From a virus, in the IMG/VR virus record IMGVR_UViG_3300046355_000213, positions 61,035-125,034 of that record: 64,000 nucleotides of DNA. One strand, 5' to 3'. Shown piece by piece: positions 1,753 through 59,246 of this stretch (positions are counted from its first letter, which is position 1; each line of letters opens with the position of its first letter). The translations under genes and the position numbers were made by a program. The notes below the pieces were generated by a model, which saw only the letters and a program-made list of their open reading frames with translations, was not told where the DNA came from and searched no databases.

Positions 1753-3723
1753 TTACTGTGTCATTCTCATGGCTGGAAACTGTCTGTTTTGCATACCGGC
1801 CATCATCTGCATGAATGGGTTCATCACAGAAGTAAAATCAGGGTAGCCATCATTGTCCTTATCAGTGGTAGTAGTACGGCCTTTTTGTTTCATCTGCTCG
1901 TCAGCCCATGCAGTTGCTTTGTCCATGGGCATTTTTAAGGTCTCCGTAGCATACTTGATCATCTCAGGATAAGTAGTTGCTGCTGCACCTGTACCTCTTG
2001 CACCACGGATCATGCTGTTGATGTCACGATTAGGATCTTTCTGTTTGGCAAATCCTGTACGGGAGTCAATCATGAAGTAAGGGTTGGTAGCATTGATGCC
2101 ATCCACCATTGCACGGTTGTTCCAGGCATTGTTGTATGCTGCCAGCAATTGACTGTCAGCAGCACTTTGGTTACGGAAGTTTTCTTTCAGTGCATTGTTT
2201 GCCATCTCGTTGTACATCGTACTTGCCTGGGCACGGTTAGCCAGATACTGGTTATCCATCTGTGCACCTTGTGTCTCATACTGATTGGCAATCATTACGT
2301 TTTGCTTATTTACCGCTCCTGCGTTGGCTTCATTGGCTGCCAGGTTTCTTCCTGCCACCTGTGATGCGCCTGCTAAGAATTGCTGTGGTCTTCCAAAGGT
2401 TCTCATACCCTGCATCTGCATGTTAGCCATCTCAGCATTCGCTGCATAGTCGCGGGTAGGGTCCATGAATACGGCCTTTGGTTTTACATAACCAGGTGTA
2501 GCTACAAAGGGCTTGATCGTAGGAATGGTTGCTCTGGTAGCCAGGGCCTGCATACCTGCCAGCTTATCTGGTAATAAGTAATCAGCATTAGGCATTTTAT
2601 ATGGAGCACCTGCTGTCCCTGGTTGTGGACCTGAAAGCATTTCCTCTTCAGACGTAGAACTAGTGTAAGGAGGGTAGCTGTTAGGTACAGGAGCCAAAGT
2701 AGGCAACTTCATCTGTACTGGGATAGGCATAGGAGCTCTTTGGATAGGGTCTACTTTTTCCATCAAACGCGGTGCACGGAAATCATAATAACCGTCATTG
2801 AACTGTTGCTTTAACTGCTCATCGGTTAACTGATTCACTGCTTTACCAGGATACATCTTCTTGCCCTTGTTAGTTAAAGGGACATTCTTTAGATAATTCA
2901 CAAACTGGTTGTTGAACTCAGGATCTTTTTGAGCACTCTGGATCATCCACTTCTGCCACTGGTCCACATTGTTTGGACTGCCCGTATAGCCACGGTTTCC
3001 ATAATAACTTGCCACGTCATTAAAACTGTCAAAAGAGTTCTCACGCATATCTTTCATGCCTGGTGTTCTCTTTCTGTAGTCCTCTGTTACCTGACCCTTA
3101 GTCTGGTACTGAGTTAAGCCGCCAAAAGCAGCTTGTGGCATAGCAGACTGTGCGATGTCTGGAATGCCTTGCGGGAAACCTTTCATGCTCTCCTGTAATA
3201 GGGCAAGCTGACCCAGCTTTTTTTGATTGTTGTCCATCATCATTTGAGCAGTCTGCTTTTTAAGCGGGTCTGCCAATGGATCATCAAGTACGCTCTTGTA
3301 CTTGTTCAGGTCATATTGCTTTGCCAGTTGAGCTGGAGTGTATTTTTTCTTAGAATCTGCACTTTTACCAAACATCTCCAGAGCGGCACCTCCAACCTTC
3401 ATCTTCTTTGTGTCAGAGAATATAAAGCTGCCAGGGTTCAGGTTAAGCGGCGTACCACCTTGAGAGTGACGCTTACCGCCAATCTTCATGTGTTCCTGCA
3501 TGCCGTCACCATCCAGGTCACCTACAACAGTCTCTCCTTTTTCTGCTTCCAGGTTAGCTTCTTCTCTTGGAACGGGCTGTAAGGTATCAGATACGGACTG
3601 GTAAGGACTATCCTCACGCATTTGGTTGTCTAACACCGGTTGACCTAAGTCAAGGTTGTAACCTCGCTGGCCACCATAAGCCATGTTAGGCATGTCCTTA
3701 ATACGTACTCTGTATGTTTTCAT
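1753..3723 (-). CDS. crAss-like cargo/internal virion protein
   Basis: 656 aa; EAEKGET...GKRHSQGG...FIFSD motif, Q/M/A-rich, xxxGG motifs, cargo-gene position. Confidence 0.65.
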   Translation of the reverse strand: MKTYRVRIKDMPNMAYGGQRGYNLDLGQPVLDNQMREDSPYQSVSDTLQPVPREEANLEAEKGETVVGDLDGDGMQEHMKIGGKRHSQGGTPLNLNPGSFIFSDTKKMKVGGAALEMFGKSADSKKKYTPAQLAKQYDLNKYKSVLDDPLADPLKKQTAQMMMDNNQKKLGQLALLQESMKGFPQGIPDIAQSAMPQAAFGGLTQYQTKGQVTEDYRKRTPGMKDMRENSFDSFNDVASYYGNRGYTGSPNNVDQWQKWMIQSAQKDPEFNNQFVNYLKNVPLTNKGKKMYPGKAVNQLTDEQLKQQFNDGYYDFRAPRLMEKVDPIQRAPMPIPVQMKLPTLAPVPNSYPPYTSSTSEEEMLSGPQPGTAGAPYKMPNADYLLPDKLAGMQALATRATIPTIKPFVATPGYVKPKAVFMDPTRDYAANAEMANMQMQGMRTFGRPQQFLAGASQVAGRNLAANEANAGAVNKQNVMIANQYETQGAQMDNQYLANRAQASTMYNEMANNALKENFRNQSAADSQLLAAYNNAWNNRAMVDGINATNPYFMIDSRTGFAKQKDPNRDINSMIRGARGTGAAATTYPEMIKYATETLKMPMDKATAWADEQMKQKGRTTTTDKDNDGYPDFTSVMNPFMQMMAGMQNRQFPAMRMTQ

Positions 3724-3735
3724 AGGAATATAGTC

Positions 3736-3751
3736 TACTCTTTAATATAAC
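3736..3751 (-). promoter_or_regulatory. Late promoter motif variant GTTATATTAAAGAGTA
   Basis: Degenerate copy just upstream of the ATG at 3723. Confidence 0.45.
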
Positions 3752-3788
3752 AAAATTTCTGGAGTTTAACAAGCTAAACCTAAAAGGT

Positions 3789-5234
3789 TTAAATGAACTC
3801 CACATCACCGCCCATAGCTTTGATCTGCATGATCTGGTCTGCTGTAAGCTCATACTCTCCACCTTGCTGCATCATTTCTACGTGCAGGTGATCTCCTTCA
3901 TCAATGATGTCTTCAATGCCGTAGCGCTGGCGGATCTGTGGGCTCTGGCTTAAAAGGCCTTTCAGTTGATTGTAAGCCCTTCTATCAGAAGAGTTGGCAC
4001 CAATGTCAATAGCTTTGTTCTGGTAATGCTTGGAGCCACTCATGTGCTTGCTGTCATTGCCGGAAGAAATCTTCAGGCCAGGAAACTGTGCACTCATGTC
4101 TGTAGCAAAAGCACTAAGACCTGCATCCAGGTTATTGATGTTTACTCCTGGCTTAGTATCCAGGCCGGTATAGTTTGCATTGGTTGTACCAAAAGCATCG
4201 CGGGTTATCTTACCCTTACCAAAGTAATCCATAGCTCCCTTAGGCCCTGCAAAATGAATCATCATTTTTATCTGGTCTACAGACTGCTTGGGATTGTACT
4301 GCTGTTTAATCTTCTGGGCATACGGCGTCAGGGTATTAGCATTCCAATAGTCAAAGTATTTTTCCTGGGCATCCGGAGTATCTAAGAAAGCTTGCTTGCT
4401 GTCTACTCCTGTTACCGTGCGGATAGTGTCTTTGTGTTGGTTCCATAAGAACTGATACTTACCCGCTGCAGAACTTGCCAGGGAACCGTCTTTCTTTTTA
4501 GGAAGGGCCCGGTAGTCGCCGCCACTCTCACGGGTAGCAATCTGCTCTTTTAATGATATAGAGGCAGATTTAAAGTTTGTCTCTGCAGGTTGAGCAGGCA
4601 TACTAGGCATCTCCGGCATAGTCTGTGGCATATAGTCCATAGGGTTCACCAGGGCCGTATTACTAAACGCATCAATAGAAGGCACCATGTACTGTTCTGT
4701 CTCAGCGTTAACTCCTCCTACCTGAAAGAACCGTCCACCATTGTACTGTCCTTCCGGAGACTTGACACCCATTTGATCTGGTCTGAATAAACCATAGTCA
4801 GAAGGCCCTACACCGTAGTTACCTCTATCCATGGAGTTTTCTCCTTGTTGGTTAAACTGGGCATTACGGTTACGTAATAAGGTATCACGCTCTCTTTCAG
4901 CATCACCCTTGTTGAAAGCTGCATTGTAAAGATTAGCAGCATTATATCCTGCATTCATCACATCCATGAAATTAACTGTCCTTTTAGGTAGGTCAATTTC
5001 AGGATTCTCCTTAGCAATACGTTGCTTTAGGTCATTGGCAAATACAGCATCTGCAGCAGCACCTGTAGGAGCCTGAGTAGGAAAAGCCTGATTTGTCATT
5101 TGAAAATCATTGCTGGCCTGATCAATCATTTCCTGGTCAGATAATTGAAACTGAAACTTGTTAGGAGTTATCTGAGGAAAAGTGTTCTGCCCTGCCAGCT
5201 GAAATTTCTTAAGCCCTGTTATACGGATCTTCAT
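3789..5234 (-). CDS. Virion-associated peptidoglycan hydrolase: lysozyme-like domain plus M15-like Zn peptidase domain
   Basis: IATRESGGDY...AAGKYQF lysozyme-like motif; SKHYQNKAIDI...DHLHVE (H-x6-D...HxH) peptidase motif; likely start MKIRITG at 5234, right after the upstream stop. Confidence 0.75.
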   Translation of the reverse strand: MKIRITGLKKFQLAGQNTFPQITPNKFQFQLSDQEMIDQASNDFQMTNQAFPTQAPTGAAADAVFANDLKQRIAKENPEIDLPKRTVNFMDVMNAGYNAANLYNAAFNKGDAERERDTLLRNRNAQFNQQGENSMDRGNYGVGPSDYGLFRPDQMGVKSPEGQYNGGRFFQVGGVNAETEQYMVPSIDAFSNTALVNPMDYMPQTMPEMPSMPAQPAETNFKSASISLKEQIATRESGGDYRALPKKKDGSLASSAAGKYQFLWNQHKDTIRTVTGVDSKQAFLDTPDAQEKYFDYWNANTLTPYAQKIKQQYNPKQSVDQIKMMIHFAGPKGAMDYFGKGKITRDAFGTTNANYTGLDTKPGVNINNLDAGLSAFATDMSAQFPGLKISSGNDSKHMSGSKHYQNKAIDIGANSSDRRAYNQLKGLLSQSPQIRQRYGIEDIIDEGDHLHVEMMQQGGEYELTADQIMQIKAMGGDVEFI

Positions 5235-5235
5235 G

Positions 5236-8148
5236 TTATAGTACTTCAAAAGTGTAACCAAGCCTTTTTAACTCTGCCATCTGTGCAGGAGTCACTTCCA
5301 TTTCATCACCTACTGAATGCTGTCCTCCATTTTTCATAGAGCCTCCGCATTCAAAGCATGGCATACCGCCTGCTTCATAAAAGGCATTACCTGAGAATGT
5401 AGAGCCGCCGTCTTTCCATGTCTTTCTGGCAAATGCCCTGAAAAATGGATTGTTGTCTAAGTTCTTTTTATGTCTGGCATAGAAAGCTGCTTTTCTCTCT
5501 GGGTCTTTAGGATGCTGACCTAAGTTAGAATCCCCAAAATATTTGACAGTGCCATCAGGACCTGTTACTTTATGGGTCTTTCCTTTTCTGTCATTGCTTC
5601 TGCTTACAGTGTACCCACCATTAGCCATCTGCTCCATCTGTTCCTCAGTCATCTCCTGGTTCTCCGGAGAGTACATCATGTTGTCATATACAGAACCGGC
5701 AAAGTCATCCATAAGAGTGATCTTGCTTGCCTGCCAGGGTTCCAGGTCAGAATCTGGCTTAATGAACTTACGAAGCTTATCCAGCTTATCCATCATAGCA
5801 TTGATCTGAGACAGAGCCATCTCACCATCTGGTTGACCACCATCACCCATGAACGGCATATAACCGCCGTAAGCATACCCGTAGTCATCCATCTTATCCA
5901 GGTTACCGGCAGCTGCAAAACGGGCACGAGCAATTTCTTCTGGCATTTTGCCTCCCTCTGCATATTGTGCTTTAGGTTTTTTTCCTGCAGCTTTCATTGC
6001 CATAGCAATAGCTGCTTGTTGTGCTGAACCGCCATAGGCCATGTTACTCATGATCTTTGCTTGTACAAATTCCGGTAAAGCTTTAAAGCCAGGATTATCT
6101 GTACCGCCACCATAAGCTTTCTCAGGCGTTACATACAATGAAGTATTAGCCCCCACGTTTTTAAAGTAAGGATTATCTAAAGTCTTTTTGCGGCAGTTGA
6201 TACAACCTGCACTCATGCGGTTATCAGATACTTTATTATTGTCAAATAATTTCTCCCTGTCACCTAACAAGTGAGTAGGAATACCGTGCATGGCTACACT
6301 CACTTTTCTGTTAGGGTTTGCAGGATCCGGAAGCAAACGCTTGTTAGGATCTGTATGCTGGATGTAAAAGAAGTTATCAGACCCATAGTTTTTACCATAG
6401 TCGGTTGCACTTGTGTTACCCTTACCTGCACGGTTCATGGTATATTCACCGGAAGGTGTAGTTCTTTTCTTATAAAACACCGGTTGTTCATCACCTGCAT
6501 CTTGGCCCAGCCCAACCTCATCTTGTAAAGCAAGGTTACCATTCTCATCAAAGAAATAACCACGGGCATTCTGCTTGGATACAATACCAAACTTCTTGCC
6601 TTTGTTCTTCTCTGCGTATTGATTGTAGTAGTTGTACACATCCTGAGGAAGGTCAAAAGATTGCTCTTGTACCTCATCCTCATTCATGCCAAAAGTTCTT
6701 TCAAACCAGTTACGGTTATCTACCTTGTTGTTTACACGTTGCATACCTTTAGCGGTTGCTTTAGTTTGCGTAGTAGGTACGTAGGCAGGCATAGCGGATT
6801 GAACCGCAGGAGAAGCATAGTTTATGTTTACTCGGGGTTTCTCCTGGTACTGCAGCATGTTGAGCATTTGCTTGTTCTGCTCAGCTGTACCTTTGTAATT
6901 ATTGGCAAAGTATTTATCAAATACTTTCTTACGGCTGCTAAAGTCTGCATCCATACCACGGGCCGCCATATAATCATACAAGCTGCCGCCTTTCTGCATC
7001 TCTACTTCCATACCGTACTCAGCTTTTTTCCAACCACCACCTTTGCTCTTATACCACTTAGCTGCCCATCCATTAGCGTAAGCACTTGGATACACATCAT
7101 ACTTTTGTCTGGCCATAGACTTAGCTCTTGACCATAAAGACGGGTTGGTAGGGACATTACCCCCTGATTTGAATTCTTCCATGTCGTTGTACATTTCTTC
7201 ACCCCCAAACTCACGTCTGCGGTGTTGGTAATTTATTTTATCACTTGATGTTTTCTCTCTGGTAAACTTTGCCTTCTCTGCAGATGATAACTCAGAAGAT
7301 GTCTTGGGTGTATCGTCATTAACTCTCTTGCTAGGCCTGCATGCCGGATAACCCTTGCGGGATTCTCCCTCTTGTCTGCCACAGTCTTTGCCTGTCTTTA
7401 CATCTACCCACTTCTCTGCAAACCATCTGTCCAGACCACCGTGTTGACCACCTGATGCATTCTTTGGTAATACACCAGTTCCTTTTTTATAATTTTCACC
7501 AAACCAGGTTGCTGCAGCATCATTAGGAAACTGTATATAAGTCTTAGTAGAGTCTGCATAATCAAATGCATCTTTGCCTAAATACTTTAAAGTACCGTTA
7601 GGCATTTGTACTACAGTTGGATATACACGACTATCACCACTTTGCATATAGTGAGTACTAGGTCCTTTTACTCCAGGTATCTGCATAGAAGGTGTATTCT
7701 TTGGATATAGTCTTTGCACCCAATTAAGATTCTTGTTAGCATTTAGTACAGAATCAACATAAGCTGTTCCACCACCTTGCATCTTAACAGAACCTCCACA
7801 CTTATGACATGTCATAGGATCAGATCCACCATCAACTGCTTTCCAAGAATGACCACAACTAGAGCAAGTAACAGATCGACTTAATAGTCCACCATTCTGC
7901 ATCATTGGATACTCAGTAACGTTATCTGCATCAGGAAATAGATAGTCTTGATTAGGATACATCATTTGAGCTTGTCCAATATTAGGGACCCCTAACACAG
8001 GATAACTAACACCATCCATCGTAATATTATTAGAAGGTATGTTAGTAATCTCACCAGGATGTTGCCACTGGTTACGGGGTACTTTAGGCTTAGAAGGCTT
8101 GGACATCTTCTTTTGGATATCGGCAAGTAAACTCTTATTTAGACTCAT
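5236..8148 (-). CDS. Multi-module cargo protein with an L,D-transpeptidase-like domain, Zn ribbon and several small phage modules separated by xxxGG motifs
   Basis: 970 aa; TTPSGEY...VAMHG...RMSAGCIN (YkuD-like His/Cys motif); CSSC...CHKC ribbon; about 15 GG motifs. Confidence 0.7.
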   Translation of the reverse strand: MSLNKSLLADIQKKMSKPSKPKVPRNQWQHPGEITNIPSNNITMDGVSYPVLGVPNIGQAQMMYPNQDYLFPDADNVTEYPMMQNGGLLSRSVTCSSCGHSWKAVDGGSDPMTCHKCGGSVKMQGGGTAYVDSVLNANKNLNWVQRLYPKNTPSMQIPGVKGPSTHYMQSGDSRVYPTVVQMPNGTLKYLGKDAFDYADSTKTYIQFPNDAAATWFGENYKKGTGVLPKNASGGQHGGLDRWFAEKWVDVKTGKDCGRQEGESRKGYPACRPSKRVNDDTPKTSSELSSAEKAKFTREKTSSDKINYQHRRREFGGEEMYNDMEEFKSGGNVPTNPSLWSRAKSMARQKYDVYPSAYANGWAAKWYKSKGGGWKKAEYGMEVEMQKGGSLYDYMAARGMDADFSSRKKVFDKYFANNYKGTAEQNKQMLNMLQYQEKPRVNINYASPAVQSAMPAYVPTTQTKATAKGMQRVNNKVDNRNWFERTFGMNEDEVQEQSFDLPQDVYNYYNQYAEKNKGKKFGIVSKQNARGYFFDENGNLALQDEVGLGQDAGDEQPVFYKKRTTPSGEYTMNRAGKGNTSATDYGKNYGSDNFFYIQHTDPNKRLLPDPANPNRKVSVAMHGIPTHLLGDREKLFDNNKVSDNRMSAGCINCRKKTLDNPYFKNVGANTSLYVTPEKAYGGGTDNPGFKALPEFVQAKIMSNMAYGGSAQQAAIAMAMKAAGKKPKAQYAEGGKMPEEIARARFAAAGNLDKMDDYGYAYGGYMPFMGDGGQPDGEMALSQINAMMDKLDKLRKFIKPDSDLEPWQASKITLMDDFAGSVYDNMMYSPENQEMTEEQMEQMANGGYTVSRSNDRKGKTHKVTGPDGTVKYFGDSNLGQHPKDPERKAAFYARHKKNLDNNPFFRAFARKTWKDGGSTFSGNAFYEAGGMPCFECGGSMKNGGQHSVGDEMEVTPAQMAELKRLGYTFEVL

Positions 8149-49741: not shown

Positions 49742-49919
49742 CAGTAAACATGGACAAGAGTGGATTTATAGTTTTGGCGTAGACTACACTGTCATACGGG
49801 GCATTACCATTGAGGTATTGCATGTAAAAATCCCGGTGTACACAAGCCCATTGTTTGGTGTACGGGTTAAAGTGAAAGACATGTTGTTGGATTTCTTCAT
49901 TCATAAATTTCCCAGTCAT
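49704..49919 (-). CDS. Hypothetical protein
   Basis: VFHFNPYTKQW motif; fits operon spacing. Confidence 0.55.
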   Translation of the reverse strand: MTGKFMNEEIQQHVFHFNPYTKQWACVHRDFYMQYLNGNAPYDSVVYAKTINPLLSMFTDDGSQKESTEKS

Positions 49920-50109
49920 TAGCTAAAAGGTCATCGTCAGCATTCACATAAATACTCTTGGAATACTGGTCGCACTTGTAAATTTTCTTTTCAAATCCCA
50001 CCCCATTTACTGGAGTGATATAAAGCTTGATGTAAGTATCAGGCTTCCAATCTGGTCTTCGCATTTTATGCCCAAAAAGCATCTGCTCCAGCACTTCTCC
50101 AAAATTCAT
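49897..50109 (-). CDS. DUF2829 / Tad2-like protein (putative cyclic-nucleotide sponge)
   Basis: MNFGEVLE...GHKMRRPDW...DDLLANDW signature. Confidence 0.65.
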   Translation of the reverse strand: MNFGEVLEQMLFGHKMRRPDWKPDTYIKLYITPVNGVGFEKKIYKCDQYSKSIYVNADDDLLANDWEIYE

Positions 50110-50375
50110 TACTCCTTCAAAGTCAGGATTTTCACTACATTCATTTGTGCATTGAGGATCTCTCCGTAAGTGTGGTGAAGTAGGTGATGCTTTACTGAGT
50201 TATTAAGTACCAGATTTTCGTTGCCCTCGTATACCAGGTCAGCTAGTTCAGCACATAATTCTTTTGCCCTGGCTACTTTAGGATCCCCCGAAGGATTGAA
50301 GGTGTATCCTACTAACTTTTGACCAAAGGTTGGTTGTGGTAAAGGTTCTAAATCAGTGTAAACTTGGTTTGTCAT
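50109..50375 (-). CDS. Acb2/Tad1-like helical hairpin protein
   Basis: TFGQKLVGYTFNPSGD...AKELCAELAD...EILNAQMNVVK; start moved to 50375 because the upstream extension overlaps tRNA-Cys. Confidence 0.5.
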   Translation of the reverse strand: MTNQVYTDLEPLPQPTFGQKLVGYTFNPSGDPKVARAKELCAELADLVYEGNENLVLNNSVKHHLLHHTYGEILNAQMNVVKILTLKE

Positions 50376-50404
50376 AGTGTTGGTGTTTAGTATATGGCAC
50401 TTAG

Positions 50405-50477
50405 AGTAGGAAGACGGATTCGAACCGCCGTGCACCTGTTTTGCAAACAGAGGGCTAAACCGCTCACCCATTCCTAC
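50405..50477 (-). tRNA. tRNA-Cys(GCA)
   Basis: GTAGGAA/TTCCTAC acceptor, loop TTGCAAA, T-loop TTCGAAT, discriminator U. Confidence 0.9.
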
Positions 50478-50482
50478 TTGTG

Positions 50483-50565
50483 TTGAAAGAGAGGGATTCG
50501 AACCCCCGTACCCCGAAGAGAGCAGATTTACAGTCTGCCGGTTTTAGCCACTCACCCACCTTTCA
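50483..50565 (-). tRNA. tRNA-Tyr(GTA)
   Basis: GCAGA-CTGTAAA-TCTGC anticodon arm, long variable arm. Confidence 0.9.
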
Positions 50566-50600
50566 GTATCAAAACTTGCAGCTTTTACAAGTTTTGCTAG

Positions 50601-50682
50601 TACTCCCAGTCAGACTCGAACTGACACATCTTGCGACACCAGATCCTAAGTCTGGCGTGTCTACCAATTCCACCACGGGAGC
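50601..50682 (-). tRNA. tRNA-Leu(TAG)
   Basis: CCAGA-CTTAGGA-TCTGG anticodon arm, Leu-type D loop and variable arm. Confidence 0.9.
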
Positions 50683-50685
50683 AGT

Positions 50686-50811
50686 TAAAGAGACTGCGGG
50701 TCTTTCAAGGTTTCTGATTAGCCTGATTTTACTTACACTTACTATAAACCTTTTTTCAGTGTAATCACCATTATCAGAGGTGTGCTAACTACAGCTTCAA
50801 CCATCTCTTTA
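50686..50811 (-). ncRNA. Candidate 6S-like rod-shaped ncRNA between tRNA-Thr and tRNA-Leu
   Basis: Nested pairings TAAAGAGA/TCTCTTTA, TCTGAT/ATCAGA, TTACACT/AGTGTAA around a large internal bubble. Confidence 0.35.
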
Positions 50812-50812
50812 G

Positions 50813-50886
50813 AGCTTCCTGTAGGATTCGAACCTACGACCACTTGATTACAAATCAGGAGCTCTGGCCAGCTGAGCTAAGGAAGC
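50813..50886 (-). tRNA. tRNA-Thr(TGT)
   Basis: CCTGA-TTTGTAA-TCAAG anticodon arm; canonical cloverleaf. Confidence 0.9.
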
Positions 50887-50951
50887 TTATGTCGCATATA
50901 TTAGACATTATGCCCAAAAACAGGGGTTAATGGCTAATATATTAATCATTG

Positions 50952-51022
50952 CACGTCCTAAAGGATTCGAACCTCTACCAACGGTTTTGGAGACCGCTAT
51001 GCTACCATTGCACCAAAGACGC
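50952..51022 (-). tRNA. tRNA-Trp(CCA)
   Basis: GCGGT-CTCCAAA-ACCGT anticodon arm. Confidence 0.9.
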
Positions 51023-51083
51023 GTACTCCAGTCTATTCCTGGATGTCAACTGCCTGCCTACTTTCGCGCTTGGACAGATTCAG

Positions 51084-51157
51084 TAGAGATAATAGGACTC
51101 GAACCTATGGCCACTGACGTATCAGATCAGTGCTCTAACCAACTGAGCTATATCTCT
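51084..51157 (-). tRNA. tRNA-Ile(GAT)
   Basis: CTGAT-CTGATAC-GTCAG anticodon arm. Confidence 0.9.
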
Positions 51158-51162
51158 ATTTG

Positions 51163-51248
51163 TAGAGAGTGAGAGGCTCGAACTCTCGCGGCTGTAACAC
51201 CCTACCTCGTTAGCAGTGAGGCCCCTTCACCAACTTGGGTAACTCTCT
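51163..51248 (-). tRNA. tRNA-Ser(GCT)
   Basis: CCTCA-CTGCTAA-CGAGG anticodon arm, long variable arm. Confidence 0.9.
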
Positions 51249-51254
51249 ATTTTG

Positions 51255-51329
51255 TGGAGACGGTGGGAGTCGAACCCACGTTACCGTGCTACCCGGTTTT
51301 AATCAGAAGCACCAAAACCCGTCATCCCC
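51255..51329 (-). ncRNA. Mini tmRNA-like RNA (tRNA-like domain only, G3:U70)
   Basis: GGGGATG/CGTCTCC-A acceptor, GTGGG-TTCGACT-CCCAC T arm, no D stem or anticodon arm. Confidence 0.6.
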
Positions 51330-51510
51330 TTAATTCAAACTTATAAGCCGGAGTATTAGTTCCTGTACCTACATTACCTGTTGTAGATATGGTTAATTTT
51401 CCACTGGCAGTAATGCGCATACGCTCTTCAGGCATCTGCCTTTTTTGCTCGGGTAATACACTCAAGGCTGCTAAAGCCCCCAGGTTTGATAAAAAGTTTC
51501 TTCTCTTCAT
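51322..51510 (-). CDS. Small protein: twin-arginine-like signal plus one tail-fibre repeat
   Basis: MKRRNFLSNLGALAAL; ERMRITASG...GNVGTGTNTPAYKFE resembles the repeats of the fibre genes. Confidence 0.5.
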   Translation of the reverse strand: MKRRNFLSNLGALAALSVLPEQKRQMPEERMRITASGKLTISTTGNVGTGTNTPAYKFELRG

Positions 51511-51526
51511 TGTTTACTACTTTTTG

Positions 51527-51671
51527 CTGTAGCGGAAGGATTCGAACCTCCAAGTGGACTTTAGCTATAGGACATTGCGCGCTATTTGTGGTCAACCCTT
51601 TATCCTACGTTTATCAGTAGCTCCACACCCCCGAGACAGGAGGGCACGTCTGCCAATTTCATCACACTACA
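51527..51671 (-). tRNA. Atypical tRNA-Asp(GTC) with 76-nt structured variable arm
   Basis: TGTAGTG/CGCTACA-G acceptor, CCCTC-CTGTCTC-GGGGG arm, GGAGG-TTCGAAT-CCTTC T arm. Confidence 0.75.
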
Positions 51672-51676
51672 GTATA

Positions 51677-52192
51677 CTAGGTATCGTACGCTAAATTCTG
51701 TCCTCCTCGAACCTGTGAGGACTGTTCTTCTTCTAAGTCTCTTAGTGTACCCTTGAAGCTTTGTCTGATCTGTTCAAACTTGGAAGCAGCATTTACAATA
51801 GCAGTAATATTTCCATCACGTCCATGCTCAATAGGTGTAATCTCCATATAGTGAGCCAAACGGTCAAGCATACTCTTCATACCAATATAAGCCCTGTATG
51901 TAGGCGTTTCATAGAGCTGTCTGCATCTCTTTAGTGCATAGATGATCATTTCATCCTCTGTAGAAAACTCAGCGGCAATATCCCTTAATATAAGGTCTTC
52001 CTTGTCCTGCTCTGGGGTGTCAAAGTATGGATTGAGATCCGGGCTAGGGCAGCTCATGTAAAACAGGTAGGTCATGATCTTTGTGGCCTCCTCTTTGTCG
52101 TAAGATTCCAGAATAGTATTTAGGAAGCTTAGCGTATAGCAATGCTCAGATGGCACTACTTTGCCACTAGCTATGTCAAATAATCTTACCAT
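51677..52192 (-). CDS. Conserved crAss-like protein (possible terminase small subunit)
   Basis: 171 aa helical, ends QVRGG; upstream of the terminase region. Confidence 0.5.
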   Translation of the reverse strand: MVRLFDIASGKVVPSEHCYTLSFLNTILESYDKEEATKIMTYLFYMSCPSPDLNPYFDTPEQDKEDLILRDIAAEFSTEDEMIIYALKRCRQLYETPTYRAYIGMKSMLDRLAHYMEITPIEHGRDGNITAIVNAASKFEQIRQSFKGTLRDLEEEQSSQVRGGQNLAYDT

Positions 52193-52701
52193 TAGTCCCA
52201 GTGCTTGTTATACTCCTCAAAGTAAAAAGTCAAATCCTGTGTCTGATCATCGTAATAATGCCCAACCACGTCACTTTTAAAATTACTTCCCAGATTTTCA
52301 CATAACGCTGTGGTGATTACCTGAGTTCCTTCTGGTAATAATTCTTTTAGCACTTGTGTAATCCACATGTAGTTAAATCCACGGATGATTCCTGCCTCAC
52401 AGAGCACCACATGCTTGTAGTTCTTTCTTGCTTCCTGAAACTTGACTCTAAGCCTGTATTCAAATGGAGAGAAATCCTGTTTAGGATAAGGAACCTCTAC
52501 GTGTTCTAAATCACACATCTCCCCTTCATGAGAAAGCTGATGGGCCATAAACATAGACACCATAGAGCTGTAATCAGGCGACACGTTGATCACCAGGGTA
52601 TTTGAAGCATTGACTTCCGGGTATTTTTTGTGGAGTTCCCCTGCTAATTTTTTTAGCAAGGTATATTCAAAATCACGGTCAATTAAATAGGGCTTTCTCA
52701 T
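52192..52701 (-). CDS. Phosphoribosyltransferase-fold protein
   Basis: HVVLCEAGIIRGFNY resembles a divergent PRPP-binding loop. Confidence 0.5.
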   Translation of the reverse strand: MRKPYLIDRDFEYTLLKKLAGELHKKYPEVNASNTLVINVSPDYSSMVSMFMAHQLSHEGEMCDLEHVEVPYPKQDFSPFEYRLRVKFQEARKNYKHVVLCEAGIIRGFNYMWITQVLKELLPEGTQVITTALCENLGSNFKSDVVGHYYDDQTQDLTFYFEEYNKHWD

Positions 52702-59063: not shown

Positions 59064-59160
59064 GGTCAGGTGGCGGAATTGGTAAGACGTGCTTAAAACA
59101 GGCGGTTATAGAGTGTAGCTATGTATATAACTTTTGCAGGTTCGAATCCTGTCCTGACTA
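59064..59160 (+). ncRNA. tRNA-Leu-like element with degenerate anticodon arm
   Basis: GGTCAGG/CCTGACT-A acceptor, GCGGAATTGGTAAGACGT D arm, GCAGG-TTCGAAT-CCTGT T arm; no 5-bp/7-nt anticodon arm. Confidence 0.65.
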
Positions 59161-59246
59161 CAGTGGTGTCATTACCATAGTTTACGAACTGAAATAAAAA
59201 TGTGACAGCTGGAAAGACAGCATTTTTTTCAACCAAACAAAATAGT

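What the first reader, a model, noticed from the sequence alone, without database searches (positions are those of the whole stretch)
51527..51671. 145-nt tRNA-Asp(GUC) with a giant 76-nt structured variable arm
Seen: intact acceptor, D, anticodon (GTC) and T arms and a G73 discriminator, which fit Asp identity. The variable region (51552-51627) is 76 nt and folds as nested stems GTGGA/TCCAC, GCTA/TAGC and TAGGATA/TGTCCTA. The D loop (AAATTGGCAGA) is of the Leu-like class II type, and position 37 is U instead of a purine. Established: tRNA-Asp is class I with a 4-5 nt variable loop, and class II arms are about 10-25 nt. Inference: a tRNA scaffold displaying an extra RNA domain (aptamer or protein-binding site), a nuclease-resistant or decoy tRNA, or an unusual excised insert.
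Basis: partly seen in the sequence, partly recalled or inferred. Interest (0 to 1): 0.8.

Follow-up and report, generated by a model that had tools for sequence, protein, structure and literature searches.

The report
Phage copy of giant-armed tRNA-like RNA
This phage carries a real, conserved 145-base RNA gene shaped like an aspartate tRNA with a large folded extra arm; it belongs to a big unannotated RNA family of Bacteroidota bacteria and their phages whose job is still unknown.

Summary
On the minus strand at 51671-51527 lies a 145-nt cloverleaf with a Leu-type class II D arm, loop CUGUCUC (GUC, U37, C38), G73 and a 76-nt variable arm. ARAGORN and Rfam miss it.

It is no decayed tRNA. I recovered 235 distinct relatives, 88-192 nt long with a median near 144. 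They come from IMG/VR phage contigs and from Bacteroidota chromosomes. Five of five such bacteria checked also keep an ordinary tRNA-Asp.

Covariation supports the body and three arm helices: 95.5% of cells paired, 29 of 41 pairs compensatory, 0 of 500 shuffles as good.

The RNA combines all five strong aspartate determinants with the U1:A72 pair of tRNA-Asn. My best guess, at about 0.35, is a non-decoding aspartate carrier, possibly amidated by GatCAB. The co-occurrence tests were weak.

New here: phage copies carry a GC-rich perfect palindrome (GCGCGC in this window) at the arm tip, which suggests RNA dimerisation.

This scan had already found the family on other DNA. I found no paper or Rfam model describing it.

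The parts
51527..51671 (-). Whole 145-nt tRNA-like RNA gene (mature-form coordinates, through discriminator G73). The next base, 51526, is the C that follows G73 in every relative.
   Evidence: Sequence. 235 distinct relatives, with G73 in 235/235 and the following C in 235/235. Not called by ARAGORN or Rfam.
51665..51671 (-). Acceptor stem 5' strand, TGTAGTG (U1, G2, U3...).
   Evidence: Helix 1 is 100% paired and 6 of 7 pairs are compensatory. U1:A72 229/235, G2:C71 235/235, U3:A70 228/235.
51646..51662 (-). D arm with a 3-bp stem and a Leu-type class II loop, AAAUUGGCAGA.
   Evidence: Helix 2 is 93.8% paired and 2 of 3 pairs are compensatory. The loop resembles that of the window's own tRNA-Leu (alignment).
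51628..51644 (-). Anticodon arm, CCCUC/GGGGG with loop CUGUCUC. GUC lies at 51635-51637, with U at position 37 and C at 38.
   Evidence: Helix 3 is 97.6% paired. The loop is YUGUCUC in all copies retrieved without using the loop: 32/32 distinct blastn hits and 46/46 tRNA-like hits of the arm-motif scan.
51552..51627 (-). 76-nt variable arm. Helices: V1 GUGG (51623-51626) with CCAC (51554-51557); V2 ACU (51616-51618) with AGU (51558-51560); V3 GUAGGAUA (51601-51608) with UGUCCUAU (51567-51574). Internal loop: GAUAAAC (51609-51615) opposite AGCUAA (51561-51566).
   Evidence: Helices 4-6 are 99.8, 92.2 and 91.3% paired, with 3/4, 3/3 and 6/8 pairs compensatory. Coordinates.
51588..51598 (-). Conserved apical motif GGGUUGACCAC. 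It reads as a mini-hairpin GG-UUGA-CC with a bulged A.
   Evidence: Invariant or nearly invariant columns in A1. GGNTWGACCA occurs in 51/89 viral and 72/146 bacterial distinct copies. Pairs 124-134 and 125-132 never vary, so the hairpin itself is not proven.
51577..51582 (-). Perfect palindrome GCGCGC in the A-flanked single-stranded stretch of the arm tip. Candidate RNA-RNA dimerisation site.
   Evidence: Viral copies: 40/47 have a palindrome of 6 nt or more here, with 15 distinct cores; 35/47 have shuffle p <= 0.05. Bacterial copies: 15/70, none significant. Unpaired probability >= 0.88 under the consensus fold; self-duplex -13.9 kcal/mol.
51535..51551 (-). T arm, GGAGG UUCGAAU CCUUC.
   Evidence: Helix 8 is 99.8% paired and 4 of 5 pairs are compensatory.
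51527..51534 (-). Acceptor stem 3' strand CGCUACA plus discriminator G73.
51677..52192 (-). Conserved 171-aa helical phage protein, ending 5 nt upstream of the RNA gene. Probably a neighbour by synteny (possibly the small terminase), not a shown partner.
   Evidence: Homologues occur in 116 viral loci. 85 of those hold the element, and the 40 smallest gaps listed run from 7 to 336 nt, upstream and on the same strand; 31 lack the element. No Pfam or PHROG family. Nearest named Atlas cluster is T5 small terminase at 0.75, a lead only. No PDB fold match at E <= 0.001.

Best explanation
SHOWN. This is a genuine RNA gene. It is the phage-borne copy of a large, uncatalogued family of tRNA-shaped RNAs found in Bacteroidota chromosomes and in their phages. 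The family has:
- a tRNA-Leu-type (class II) body;
- an aspartate-type anticodon loop, YUGUCUC (G34, U35, C36, C38, but U37);
- an invariant acceptor end: U1:A72, G2:C71, U3:A70, G73, then C;
- a long variable arm with covarying helices, typically 70-80 nt.

INFERRED. Host AspRS probably charges the RNA with aspartate, because all five strong Asp determinants are present. U37 and the bulky arm probably keep it from reading codons. It would then act as an aminoacyl carrier away from the ribosome. The one concrete route on offer is amidation of the bound Asp to Asn by GatCAB, which recognises U1:A72. The phage would bring its own copy, at the head of its tRNA array, to keep or raise this activity during infection. 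In phage copies, a palindromic loop at the arm tip would let two molecules pair.

My odds: real family member about 0.95; aspartylated about 0.5; GatCAB carrier about 0.25. The confidence given here (0.35) is for the non-decoding carrier reading as a whole.
For: Family and structure:
- 235 distinct relatives. 118 of them align over the full length, 95.5% paired, 29/41 pairs compensatory, 0/500 shuffles as good.
- Bacterial copies lie in Pedobacter, Chitinophaga, Cyclobacterium, Spirosoma, Algoriphagus, Aquirufa, Saprospiraceae and others. There are up to 5 tandem copies.
- They sit beside canonical tRNA-Asp genes in 5/5 genomes checked.

Identity elements:
- G73, G34, U35, C36 and C38 are the five strong Asp determinants. 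G2-C71 is a minor one (review PMC9976931, section 29 read). All are present.
- U1-A72 confers GatCAB amidation, and G1-C72 blocks it (same review, section 48 read).
- In holder genomes tRNA-Asn has U1:A72 and tRNA-Asp has G1:C72. The element has U1:A72 in 229/235.
- U37 replaces the A37 of the hosts' tRNA-Asp.

Context:
- A divergent Lrp/AsnC-type regulator lies upstream in 4/4 bacterial loci tested.
- All 22 of 22 holder genomes in a 401-genome sample have GatB.

Expression:
- Contigs of RNA libraries cover the conserved core at word depth 358 and 536.
- One runs through this arm without a joint (116 nt, 2 differences and 3 gaps).
- One continues into an Aquirufa-type arm.

Phage retention:
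- 38/80 terminase-related loci hold it, all on the terminase strand and 33-1583 nt upstream of the terminase gene.
Against: - GatB is in 343/401 sampled genomes, so 22/22 has a chance probability of about 0.03 and is confounded by phylogeny. 321 genomes have GatB without the element.
- AsnA is too rare (18/401 over the cut-off) for 0/22 to mean anything.
- An AsnB-type Asn_synthase domain is present in 4/5 holder genomes. The element is therefore not obviously their only route to asparagine.
- G1-C72 helps place the 3' end in E. coli AspRS, and it is absent here.
- AspRS approaches tRNA from the variable-loop side (recalled, not tested), so a large arm might hinder charging.
- Engineered tRNAs with aptamers at the tip of a long V-arm remain translationally active in E. 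coli (Mukai 2020, abstract read). The arm alone does not prove exclusion from the ribosome.
- The phage encodes no GatB, Asn_synthase or class IIb synthetase.
- The RNA evidence comes from assembled contigs only. DNA carry-over cannot be excluded, and no ends, CCA or charging state are known.
Confidence: 0.35

Rival explanations
1. A working, defence-proof tRNA-Asp. The RNA is aspartylated and does read GAC/GAU. Its altered loop (U37) and odd body make it invisible to host or competitor tRNA-targeting nucleases or modifiers. Phages carry it to keep translating when the normal tRNA-Asp is attacked, and bacteria keep it as a backup.
For: - It heads the phage's array of seven ordinary tRNAs.
- It lies about 1.4 kb from a Tad2-like anti-defence gene (PF11195, E 1.1e-10).
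- Half of this phage clade retains it (38/80).
- Phage tRNAs are reported to evade tRNA-targeting defences through anticodon-loop mutations (PMC10264068, title and start of abstract seen in the listing). Phage tRNAs are also reported to evade retron and other defence systems (PMC11555353, listing only).
- Long aptamer-tipped V-arms are compatible with translation in E. coli (Mukai 2020, abstract).
- The phage has no other tRNA-Asp.
Against: - A pyrimidine at 37 is strictly kept. That is unfavourable for codon reading (established knowledge, recalled).
- U1:A72 is kept in 229/235, although bacterial tRNA-Asp strictly keeps G1-C72.
- If GatCAB accepts U1:A72, a decoding RNA would put Asn at Asp codons.
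- No tRNA-Asp-specific nuclease is known to me in these hosts, and none was searched for.
Confidence: 0.25
2. A protein-binding decoy or regulator. The tRNA-like body and the conserved arm motif sequester or regulate a tRNA-binding protein (AspRS, GatCAB, Tgt, a defence sensor or an Lrp/AsnC-linked circuit). The RNA serves neither as carrier nor as decoder. Phage copies, dimerised through their palindrome, would act as a bivalent sponge.
For: - Near-invariant apical motif GGNUWGACCAC in about half the family.
- Extreme conservation of the D and anticodon arms across classes of Bacteroidota.
- Tandem multi-copy arrays and high depth of the core in RNA-library contigs.
- Phage-specific palindromes: 40/47 viral against 15/70 bacterial copies.
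- High-affinity aptamer-protein pairs sequester V-arm-tagged tRNAs (Mukai 2020, abstract).
Against: - An invariant G73 followed by C, and a fully paired 7-bp acceptor stem, suggest a normal CCA end that is used.
- About half the family lacks the apical motif, so the motif cannot be the core function.
- No partner protein has been identified. The conserved upstream phage protein also occurs without the RNA (31 of 116 loci).
Confidence: 0.2
3. A serine-accepting class II tRNA with an Asp anticodon. SerRS would charge it through the long arm and G73, so that Asp codons are sometimes read as Ser. This would work like an allo-tRNA.
For: - Long variable arm, G73 and G2:C71.
- Allo-tRNAs with mismatched anticodons exist in bacteria and phages (PMC5389517, start of abstract seen in the listing).
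Against: - The D arm and the two unpaired bases 3' of the arm are Leu-type, not Ser-type (my reading; recalled rules).
- The arm base has bulges. A single bulge in the V-arm stem stopped SerRS charging of allo-tRNAs (Mukai 2020, abstract).
- Arm length and shape vary from 19 to 123 nt.
- The acceptor/T branch is 7/5, not 8/4 or 9/3.
- This reading does not explain the strict conservation of C38, GUC and U1:A72.
Confidence: 0.05
4. A decayed tRNA with a random insertion, or a tRNA whose 76-nt insert is spliced out.
For: - The fold is no more stable than shuffles (z = -0.36).
- tRNA finders reject it.
Against: - 235 distinct relatives in two kinds of genome, with compensatory changes in every helix of the insert.
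- The median family length equals this element's length.
- RNA-library contigs run through the arm, and no joint skips it.
Confidence: 0.02

Closest known systems
Bacterial class II tRNA-Leu (Rfam RF00005 tRNA)
   Same: - 7/5 acceptor/T branch and T loop UUCGAAU.
- 3-bp D stem with loop AAUUGGCAGA, almost that of the window's own tRNA-Leu.
- The variable arm leaves the core with one unpaired base on the 5' side and two on the 3' side.
   Different: - G73, not A73.
- U1:A72.
- Asp-type anticodon loop with U37.
- An arm of 76 nt with three helices and an internal loop, in place of a 10-20-nt hairpin.
- Below the detection limits of ARAGORN and Rfam.
Bacterial tRNA-Asp
   Same: All five strong determinants (G73, G34, U35, C36, C38) and the minor G2-C71.
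   Different: - Class II body.
- U1:A72 in place of the strictly conserved G1-C72.
- U37 in place of A37.
- It coexists with a normal tRNA-Asp in host genomes.
tRNA-Asn of the indirect pathway (non-discriminating AspRS plus GatCAB; transamidosome)
   Same: - U1:A72 and G73.
- An RNA on which Asp could be made into Asn.
- Holder bacteria have GatB (22/22).
   Different: - Anticodon GUC, not GUU, so even a discriminating AspRS should accept it.
- Not evidently used for decoding.
- The GatCAB link rests on identity elements and a weak co-occurrence only.
Allo-tRNAs and engineered aptamer-tagged V-arm tRNAs (Mukai et al. 2017, PMC5389517; Mukai 2020, PMC7590224)
   Same: - Non-canonical tRNAs of bacteria and phages with long V-arms and unexpected anticodons.
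- The V-arm tip tolerates added RNA modules that bind proteins (abstract).
   Different: - Allo-tRNAs have 8/4 or 9/3 branches; this RNA has 7/5.
- This is a natural arm of up to 123 nt with its own conserved motif.
Phage tRNAs with anticodon-loop changes that escape host tRNA-targeting defences (PMC10264068)
   Same: A phage-encoded tRNA-like gene in a tRNA array near an anti-defence gene, with a loop deviating from the host tRNA at one position (37).
   Different: - The same deviant loop is also fixed in host chromosomes.
- The body and the acceptor end are remodelled as well.
HIV-1 dimerisation initiation site (kissing loop). Comparison recalled, not from a call.
   Same: A 6-nt GC-rich perfect palindrome (GCGCGC or GUGCAC type) flanked by adenines in an unpaired loop. 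Several phage copies read AAGCGCGCA in that stretch.
   Different: - Sits on a tRNA-like arm, not a viral genome leader.
- Dimerisation is untested.

Membership tests
Canonical bacterial tRNA (RF00005 / ARAGORN) | Cloverleaf with a 7-bp acceptor, D arm, 5-bp anticodon stem with a 7-nt loop and U33, and a 5-bp T stem with a UUCRANY loop | tested here: met
   Sequence. All four helices covary.
Canonical bacterial tRNA (RF00005 / ARAGORN) | Recognised by the standard models | tested here: not met
   No ARAGORN call. No RF00005 hit at the gathering score, nor at E <= 10. Only the 95-nt relatives are called, as tRNA-Asp(gtc) (L082).
Canonical bacterial tRNA (RF00005 / ARAGORN) | Purine at position 37 | tested here: not met
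   U37 here. Also U37 in every relative retrieved without using the loop: 32/32 and 46/46.
Bacterial tRNA-Asp | Strong determinants G73, G34, U35, C36, C38 (review section 29) | tested here: met
   All present. G73 in 235/235 when left unconstrained.
Bacterial tRNA-Asp | G1-C72 strictly conserved; class I body with a short variable loop | tested here: not met
   U1:A72 in 229/235. 76-nt arm. Host tRNA-Asp has G1:C72.
Bacterial tRNA-Asp | Aspartylation by AspRS and decoding of GAY | not testable with these tools
   Needs biochemistry.
Class II tRNAs (Leu, Ser, Tyr) | Long base-paired variable arm and a 3-bp D stem | tested here: met
   Helices 2 and 4-6.
Class II tRNAs (Leu, Ser, Tyr) | Matching anticodon, and A73 for Leu and Tyr (identity table passage) | tested here: not met
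   GUC anticodon and G73.
GatCAB substrates (tRNA-Asn / tRNA-Gln type) | U1-A72 determinant; no G1-C72 antideterminant (review section 48) | tested here: met
   U1:A72 in 229/235. Same first pair as the hosts' tRNA-Asn.
GatCAB substrates (tRNA-Asn / tRNA-Gln type) | No U20a antideterminant in the D loop | tested here: inconclusive
   The bases after G18 G19 read C-A-G-A, so no U. However, standard numbering is uncertain in this class II loop.
GatCAB substrates (tRNA-Asn / tRNA-Gln type) | Occurs with GatCAB; amidation of the bound Asp | tested here: inconclusive
   GatB in 22/22 holders but in 343/401 of all genomes sampled. Amidation itself is not testable here.
Uncatalogued giant-armed tRNA-like family of Bacteroidota and phages (seen before by this scan) | Leu-type body, loop YUGUCUC, U1:A72 / G2:C71 / U3:A70 / G73 then C, and a long arm with V1, V2, an AUAAA/CUAA internal loop and V3 | tested here: met
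   The window sequence is row 1 of alignment A1 and fits every helix. It is 80% identical to the nearest bacterial copies.
Allo-tRNA | 8/4 or 9/3 acceptor/T branch (start of abstract in the listing) | tested here: not met
   7/5 branch.
Intron-containing tRNA | The insert is removed from the RNA | tested here: not met
   No joint skips the arm. A 116-nt RNA-library contig is colinear with it. This is contig-level evidence only.
Kissing-loop dimerisation sites (HIV-1 DIS type; works-like comparison) | Self-complementary hexamer or longer in an accessible loop, kept palindromic through sequence change | tested here: met
   15 distinct palindromic cores in 40/47 viral copies. Accessible in the consensus fold. 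Actual dimer formation is not testable here.

The most novel reading that the evidence does not exclude
The family is a ribosome-independent aminoacyl carrier. It would be a dedicated 'workbench' RNA: AspRS loads it, and GatCAB or an unknown transferase works on it away from translation. The phage versions would be two-headed particles, joined tip to tip by a DIS-like palindromic kissing loop. That shape would match the dimeric AspRS or transamidosome, and it would let the phage capture or boost this host pathway during infection.
Probability: 0.15. Interest if true: 0.9.

Novelty: new variant of a known kind. Interest (0 to 1): 0.75.

Why it matters
If the reading is right, a major bacterial phylum and many of its phages carry a tRNA-shaped RNA that standard annotation misses. 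RNA-library contigs suggest it is abundant, and it probably does not decode.

Several questions would then become directly testable:
- whether cells use dedicated tRNA-like carriers for amino-acid chemistry off the ribosome;
- why phages so often keep one particular 'tRNA';
- how far the variable arm can grow as a platform for extra RNA modules, including a possible natural dimerisation module.

It also shows a blind spot of ARAGORN, and of the Rfam tRNA model, for arms above about 30 nt.

Tried and rejected
- **Annotated phages.** A distant blastn of 50300-52300 against GenBank phages found only the ordinary tRNAs. Nothing matched over the element.
- **Folding energy.** No signal.
- **Promoter and terminator scan.** At chance level: 4 found against 3.1 expected, and 2 against 1.5. 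Nothing useful on the minus strand next to the gene. The scan uses a sigma-70 consensus, which does not suit Bacteroidota.
Rejected.
- **Element as the hosts' only tRNA-Asp.** Rejected: 5/5 genomes have the canonical gene.
- **Co-occurrence.** GatB 22/22 against 343/401 is weak. AsnA 0/22 against 18/401 has no power. Asn_synthase in 4/5 holders is ambiguous, because AsnB paralogues have other roles.
- **Phage genes.** No Asn_synthase, class IIb synthetase or GatB in the phage.
- **The 171-aa upstream protein as a partner.**
  - It has no family.
  - The Atlas gives only a 0.75 lead to T5 small terminase.
  - The AF2 model (pLDDT 81) has no PDB match at E <= 0.001.
  - It occurs without the RNA in 31/116 loci.
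  - I therefore treat the adjacency as synteny.
- **Anticodon pairing with the arm.** The GAC inside GACCAC could pair with the GUC anticodon. Both are invariant, so covariation cannot test this idea.
- **RNA runs.** Five runs held only small shares (0.04-0.11) of the sampled words. Laid contigs mostly cover the conserved 5' core and come from relatives. The parts without cover mean nothing.
- **Literature.** Full-text searches found no description of such an RNA.
- **Not built.** I did not build a covariance model and did not run R-scape.
- **First submission.** One search was returned because one schema field (the confidence of the best explanation) was missing. This report is the same with that field added.
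Full report
**1. What is at the coordinates**

The window is the last 64 kb of a 125,034-bp IMG/VR virus record rated complete by CheckV. It encodes a portal protein, PhoH and a large terminase on the minus strand.

The minus strand at 51671-51527 reads as a 145-nt cloverleaf:
- Acceptor: UGUAGUG with CGCUACA.
- D arm: 3-bp stem and the loop AAAUUGGCAGA.
- Anticodon stem: CCCUC/GGGGG with loop CUGUCUC (GUC, then U37 and C38).
- Variable region: 76 nt.
- T arm: GGAGG-UUCGAAU-CCUUC.
- Discriminator: G.

The element sits 5 nt after the stop codon of a 171-aa gene. It heads a run of seven ordinary tRNA genes: Ser, Ile, Trp, Thr, Leu, Tyr and Cys.

ARAGORN does not call it. The Rfam tRNA model does not match it even at E <= 10. 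Its minimum free energy is no better than that of shuffled sequence (z = -0.36). On the single sequence alone it could be taken for a wreck.

**2. It belongs to a large family**

*Retrieval from phage contigs.*
- A 33-base exact search and a terminase-based search of IMG/VR brought relatives of 95 to 158 nt. Their anticodon loop is invariant, YUGUCUC, and their stems covary.

*Retrieval from bacterial genomes.*
- Every title listed names a Bacteroidota organism. They include Pedobacter, Chitinophaga, Cyclobacterium, Algoriphagus, Spirosoma, Aquirufa, Marinoscillum and Saprospiraceae.
- Persicobacter holds five tandem copies.
- ARAGORN called none of the 104 bacterial matches in loci L203-L282.

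*Family-wide counts.* A finder that leaves the discriminator free gives 235 distinct full elements:

| Feature | Count |
|---|---|
| G73 | 235/235 |
| Next base C | 235/235 |
| U1:A72 | 229/235 |
| G2:C71 | 235/235 |
| U3:A70 | 228/235 |

With the stricter finder, lengths run from 88 to 192 nt. The median is 143 nt for viral copies and 144 nt for bacterial copies. The window's 'giant' arm is therefore the normal state of the family.

*Bias to declare.* Most loci were retrieved with a pattern that fixes the loop, so its invariance in them is by construction. Two sets were retrieved without it. The blastn set has the loop in 32/32 distinct copies. A scan for the arm motif alone found 58 stretches:
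- 46 are tRNA-like, and all 46 have YUGUCUC.
- The other 12 lack the loop within 75 nt upstream. By my reading of the printed flanks, most are chance matches inside unrelated sequence.
- L358 is a 5'-truncated copy. L367, counted among the 46, is 5'-truncated too.

**3. Structure**

I aligned the 118 members that carry the apical motif (A1) and counted pairs for a structure read off the alignment.

| Measure | Result |
|---|---|
| Cells paired | 95.5% |
| Pairs changing on both sides | 29 of 41 |
| Shuffles reaching any measure | 0 of 500 |
| Pairing when partners are slid by 1-3 columns | 44-55% |

The arm consists of these parts:
- **V1**: 4 bp, 99.8% paired.
- **5' bulge**.
- **V2**: 3 bp, 92.2% paired, with all three pairs compensatory. 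In the window this is ACU with AGU.
- **Internal loop**: GAUAAAC opposite GCUAA(C/A).
- **V3**: 8 bp, 91.3% paired, with 6 pairs compensatory. It is closed by a nearly invariant U-G and A-U.
- **Tip**: holds GGNUWGACCAC and a variable linker.

On the window sequence the consensus fold costs -26.9 kcal/mol, against -40.7 for the non-tRNA MFE.

The apical motif occurs in 51/89 viral and 72/146 bacterial distinct copies. The rest have other tips, often a plain long hairpin. The tip is therefore modular. It is not the core of the function.

**4. It is an extra RNA, not the cell's tRNA-Asp**

All five holder genomes that I searched also have canonical class I tRNA-Asp genes, in 8, 3, 1, 1 and 1 copies. 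In those genomes:
- tRNA-Asp has G1:C72 and the loop CCUGUCACG.
- tRNA-Asn has U1:A72 and G73.

The element thus joins the Asp anticodon loop, with A37 changed to U, to the first base pair of tRNA-Asn, on a tRNA-Leu-like body.

According to Giege and Eriani 2023 (PMC9976931, sections 29 and 48 read in full):
- Aspartate identity rests on G73, G34, U35, C36 and C38. G2-C71 is a minor element.
- G1-C72 helps to seat the 3' end in E. coli AspRS.
- GatCAB amidation is conferred by U1-A72.
- G1-C72 and U20a prevent that amidation.

That is the logical basis for the carrier hypothesis. Earlier notes of this scan had already proposed it on other genomes.

**5. Tests of the GatCAB/asparagine idea**

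*Sample of 401 Bacteroidota genomes.*
- 22 hold the element.
- GatB_N is in 343 genomes, including all 22 holders. The chance of 22/22 is about 0.03 before any correction for phylogeny. 321 genomes have GatB without the element.
- AsnA passes its cut-off in only 18 genomes, none of them holders. That has no power.

*Five named holders.*
- AsnA: 0/5.
- An AsnB-type domain: 4/5.

*Bacterial gene context.*
- A divergent Lrp/AsnC-type regulator lies upstream in 4 of 4 loci tested by Pfam. I found this before reading the notes.
- Downstream genes differ between lineages.

The hypothesis therefore keeps its sequence logic and the AsnC neighbour. It gains little from phyletic patterns.

**6. Expression**

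Only assembled contigs of public runs were available. Three freshwater metatranscriptome libraries and one run of uncertain kind were laid on the window.
- The conserved 5' core has summed word depths of 358 and 536 in two RNA libraries.
- One 116-nt contig (depth 2) is colinear with 51534-51651 of this very element, with 2 differences and 3 gaps. It runs through the arm.
- One 371-nt contig links the neighbouring mini-RNA (0 differences) to a diverged copy of the element.
- One loose end continues into the arm sequence of the Aquirufa-type bacterial copy.
- No joint skips the arm.

This fits an unspliced RNA. It cannot exclude DNA carry-over, and it says nothing about ends or charging.

**7. 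The phage side**

*Retention in the clade.*
- Among 80 loci retrieved through the terminase (69-80% identical), 38 hold the element.
- All 38 are on the terminase strand, 33-1583 nt upstream of the terminase gene.
- Among the 49 loci with at least 2.5 kb upstream, 26 hold it.

*The upstream protein.*
- A conserved 171-aa helical protein lies upstream on the same strand in 85 element-holding viral loci. The 40 smallest gaps listed run from 7 to 336 nt, and 35 of them are 7-39 nt.
- It also occurs in 31 loci without the element.
- It has no Pfam or PHROG family and no PDB fold match.
- A weak Atlas lead (0.75) points to small terminase.
- I read the adjacency as synteny.

*Other context.*
- The phage has no other tRNA-Asp.
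- It has no GatB, Asn_synthase or class IIb synthetase.
- A Tad2-like anti-defence gene lies just beyond the tRNA array.
- The nearest bacterial copies are 80% identical. They include a Cytophagaceae MAG and Aquirufa.

**8. A phage-specific feature: palindromes at the arm tip**

The short linker after GACCAC differs sharply between viral and bacterial copies.

| Copies | Perfect palindrome of 6-12 nt | Per-sequence shuffle p <= 0.05 |
|---|---|---|
| Viral | 40 of 47 | 35 of 47 |
| Bacterial | 15 of 70 | 0 of 70 |

- The viral palindromes have 15 distinct cores. Among them are GCGCGC, GCAUGC, GUGCAC, UGCAUGCA, GUUGCAAC, UUGUGCACAA, GCCGGCCGGC and ACUGUGCACAGU.
- The window has GCGCGC, with p = 0.052 on its own.
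- Of the 15 bacterial cases, 13 are an AT-only Pedobacter-type core.

Six-base palindromes cannot fold on themselves. In the longer ones, even the would-be tetraloop stays self-complementary, which a hairpin does not require. Self-complementarity kept through sequence change points to pairing between two molecules.

In the consensus fold the window's hexamer is unpaired (P >= 0.88). Its self-duplex is worth -13.9 kcal/mol. The likeness to the HIV-1 dimerisation loop is recalled, not tested. The copies are related, so the counts are not independent events.

**9. Verdict**

The interpretation 'tRNA scaffold displaying an extra structured domain' is right in spirit. 'Excised insert' and 'decayed tRNA' are not supported.

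The function is open. I rank the readings as follows:
- Non-decoding aspartate carrier, possibly a GatCAB substrate: about 0.35.
- Decoding, defence-proof tRNA-Asp: 0.25.
- Protein decoy or regulator: 0.2.

The family is absent from Rfam 15, and I found no paper on it. This scan had met it before on other DNA.

Noticed in passing
window 51252-51329 (-): A 78-nt mini-RNA that looks like the tRNA-like domain of tmRNA without the mRNA part. It matches Rfam tmRNA at 43.3 bits (gathering score 47, E 2e-15). It has a G3:U70 pair in its acceptor stem, which is the alanine identity mark as I recall it. Near-identical copies lie in L374 and L098, and in one RNA-library contig with 0 differences.
   Followed up: partly
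window 51322-51510 (-): A 62-aa ORF between the two odd RNAs. It has an N-terminal RRNFL twin-arginine-like signal and a C-terminal stretch that weakly resembles tail-fibre repeats (phrog_9942, E 0.00097). Its stop codon lies inside the mini-RNA. It has no homologue in the viral loci held, so it may not be a real gene.
   Followed up: partly
window 59064-59161 (+): ARAGORN calls a 98-nt 'tRNA-Pro(agg)', and Rfam tRNA scores it only 34.3 bits. It has a Leu-type D arm (GGAATTGGTAAGA), no convincing anticodon arm, and a long AT-rich insert. It may be another aberrant class II tRNA-like gene or a pseudogene.
   Followed up: no
window 49897-50109 (-): A 70-aa protein with a Tad2-like (Thoeris anti-defence 2) domain, PF11195, E 1.1e-10. 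It lies just downstream of the tRNA array.
   Followed up: partly
L358 and L367 (viral loci, arm-motif scan): Two copies keep the arm and the 3' half of the element, but unrelated sequence replaces the 5' part. They share their 3' half with the intact copy in L355. This could be a rearrangement, or use of the gene as an insertion or integration site.
   Followed up: no
L228 (Persicobacter diffluens chromosome), about 6515-7234: Five tandem copies of the element at a 172-nt period. The same genome has eight tandem canonical tRNA-Asp genes and seven tandem tRNA-Asn genes elsewhere.
   Followed up: no
L212, L214, L215, L221, L234, L277 (Cyclobacterium, Belliella, Mariniradius loci): The roughly 45 nt directly downstream of the element are almost identical across these genera. 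This suggests a conserved trailer, terminator or start of a neighbouring gene.
   Followed up: no
L204 (Chitinophaga pinensis locus) 3391-4098 (+): The gene just downstream of the element has a Methyltransf_4 domain, PF02390, E 1.3e-27. As I recall, this is the TrmB-type tRNA m7G46 methyltransferase family, which acts on the variable loop. I saw it in one lineage only.
   Followed up: no
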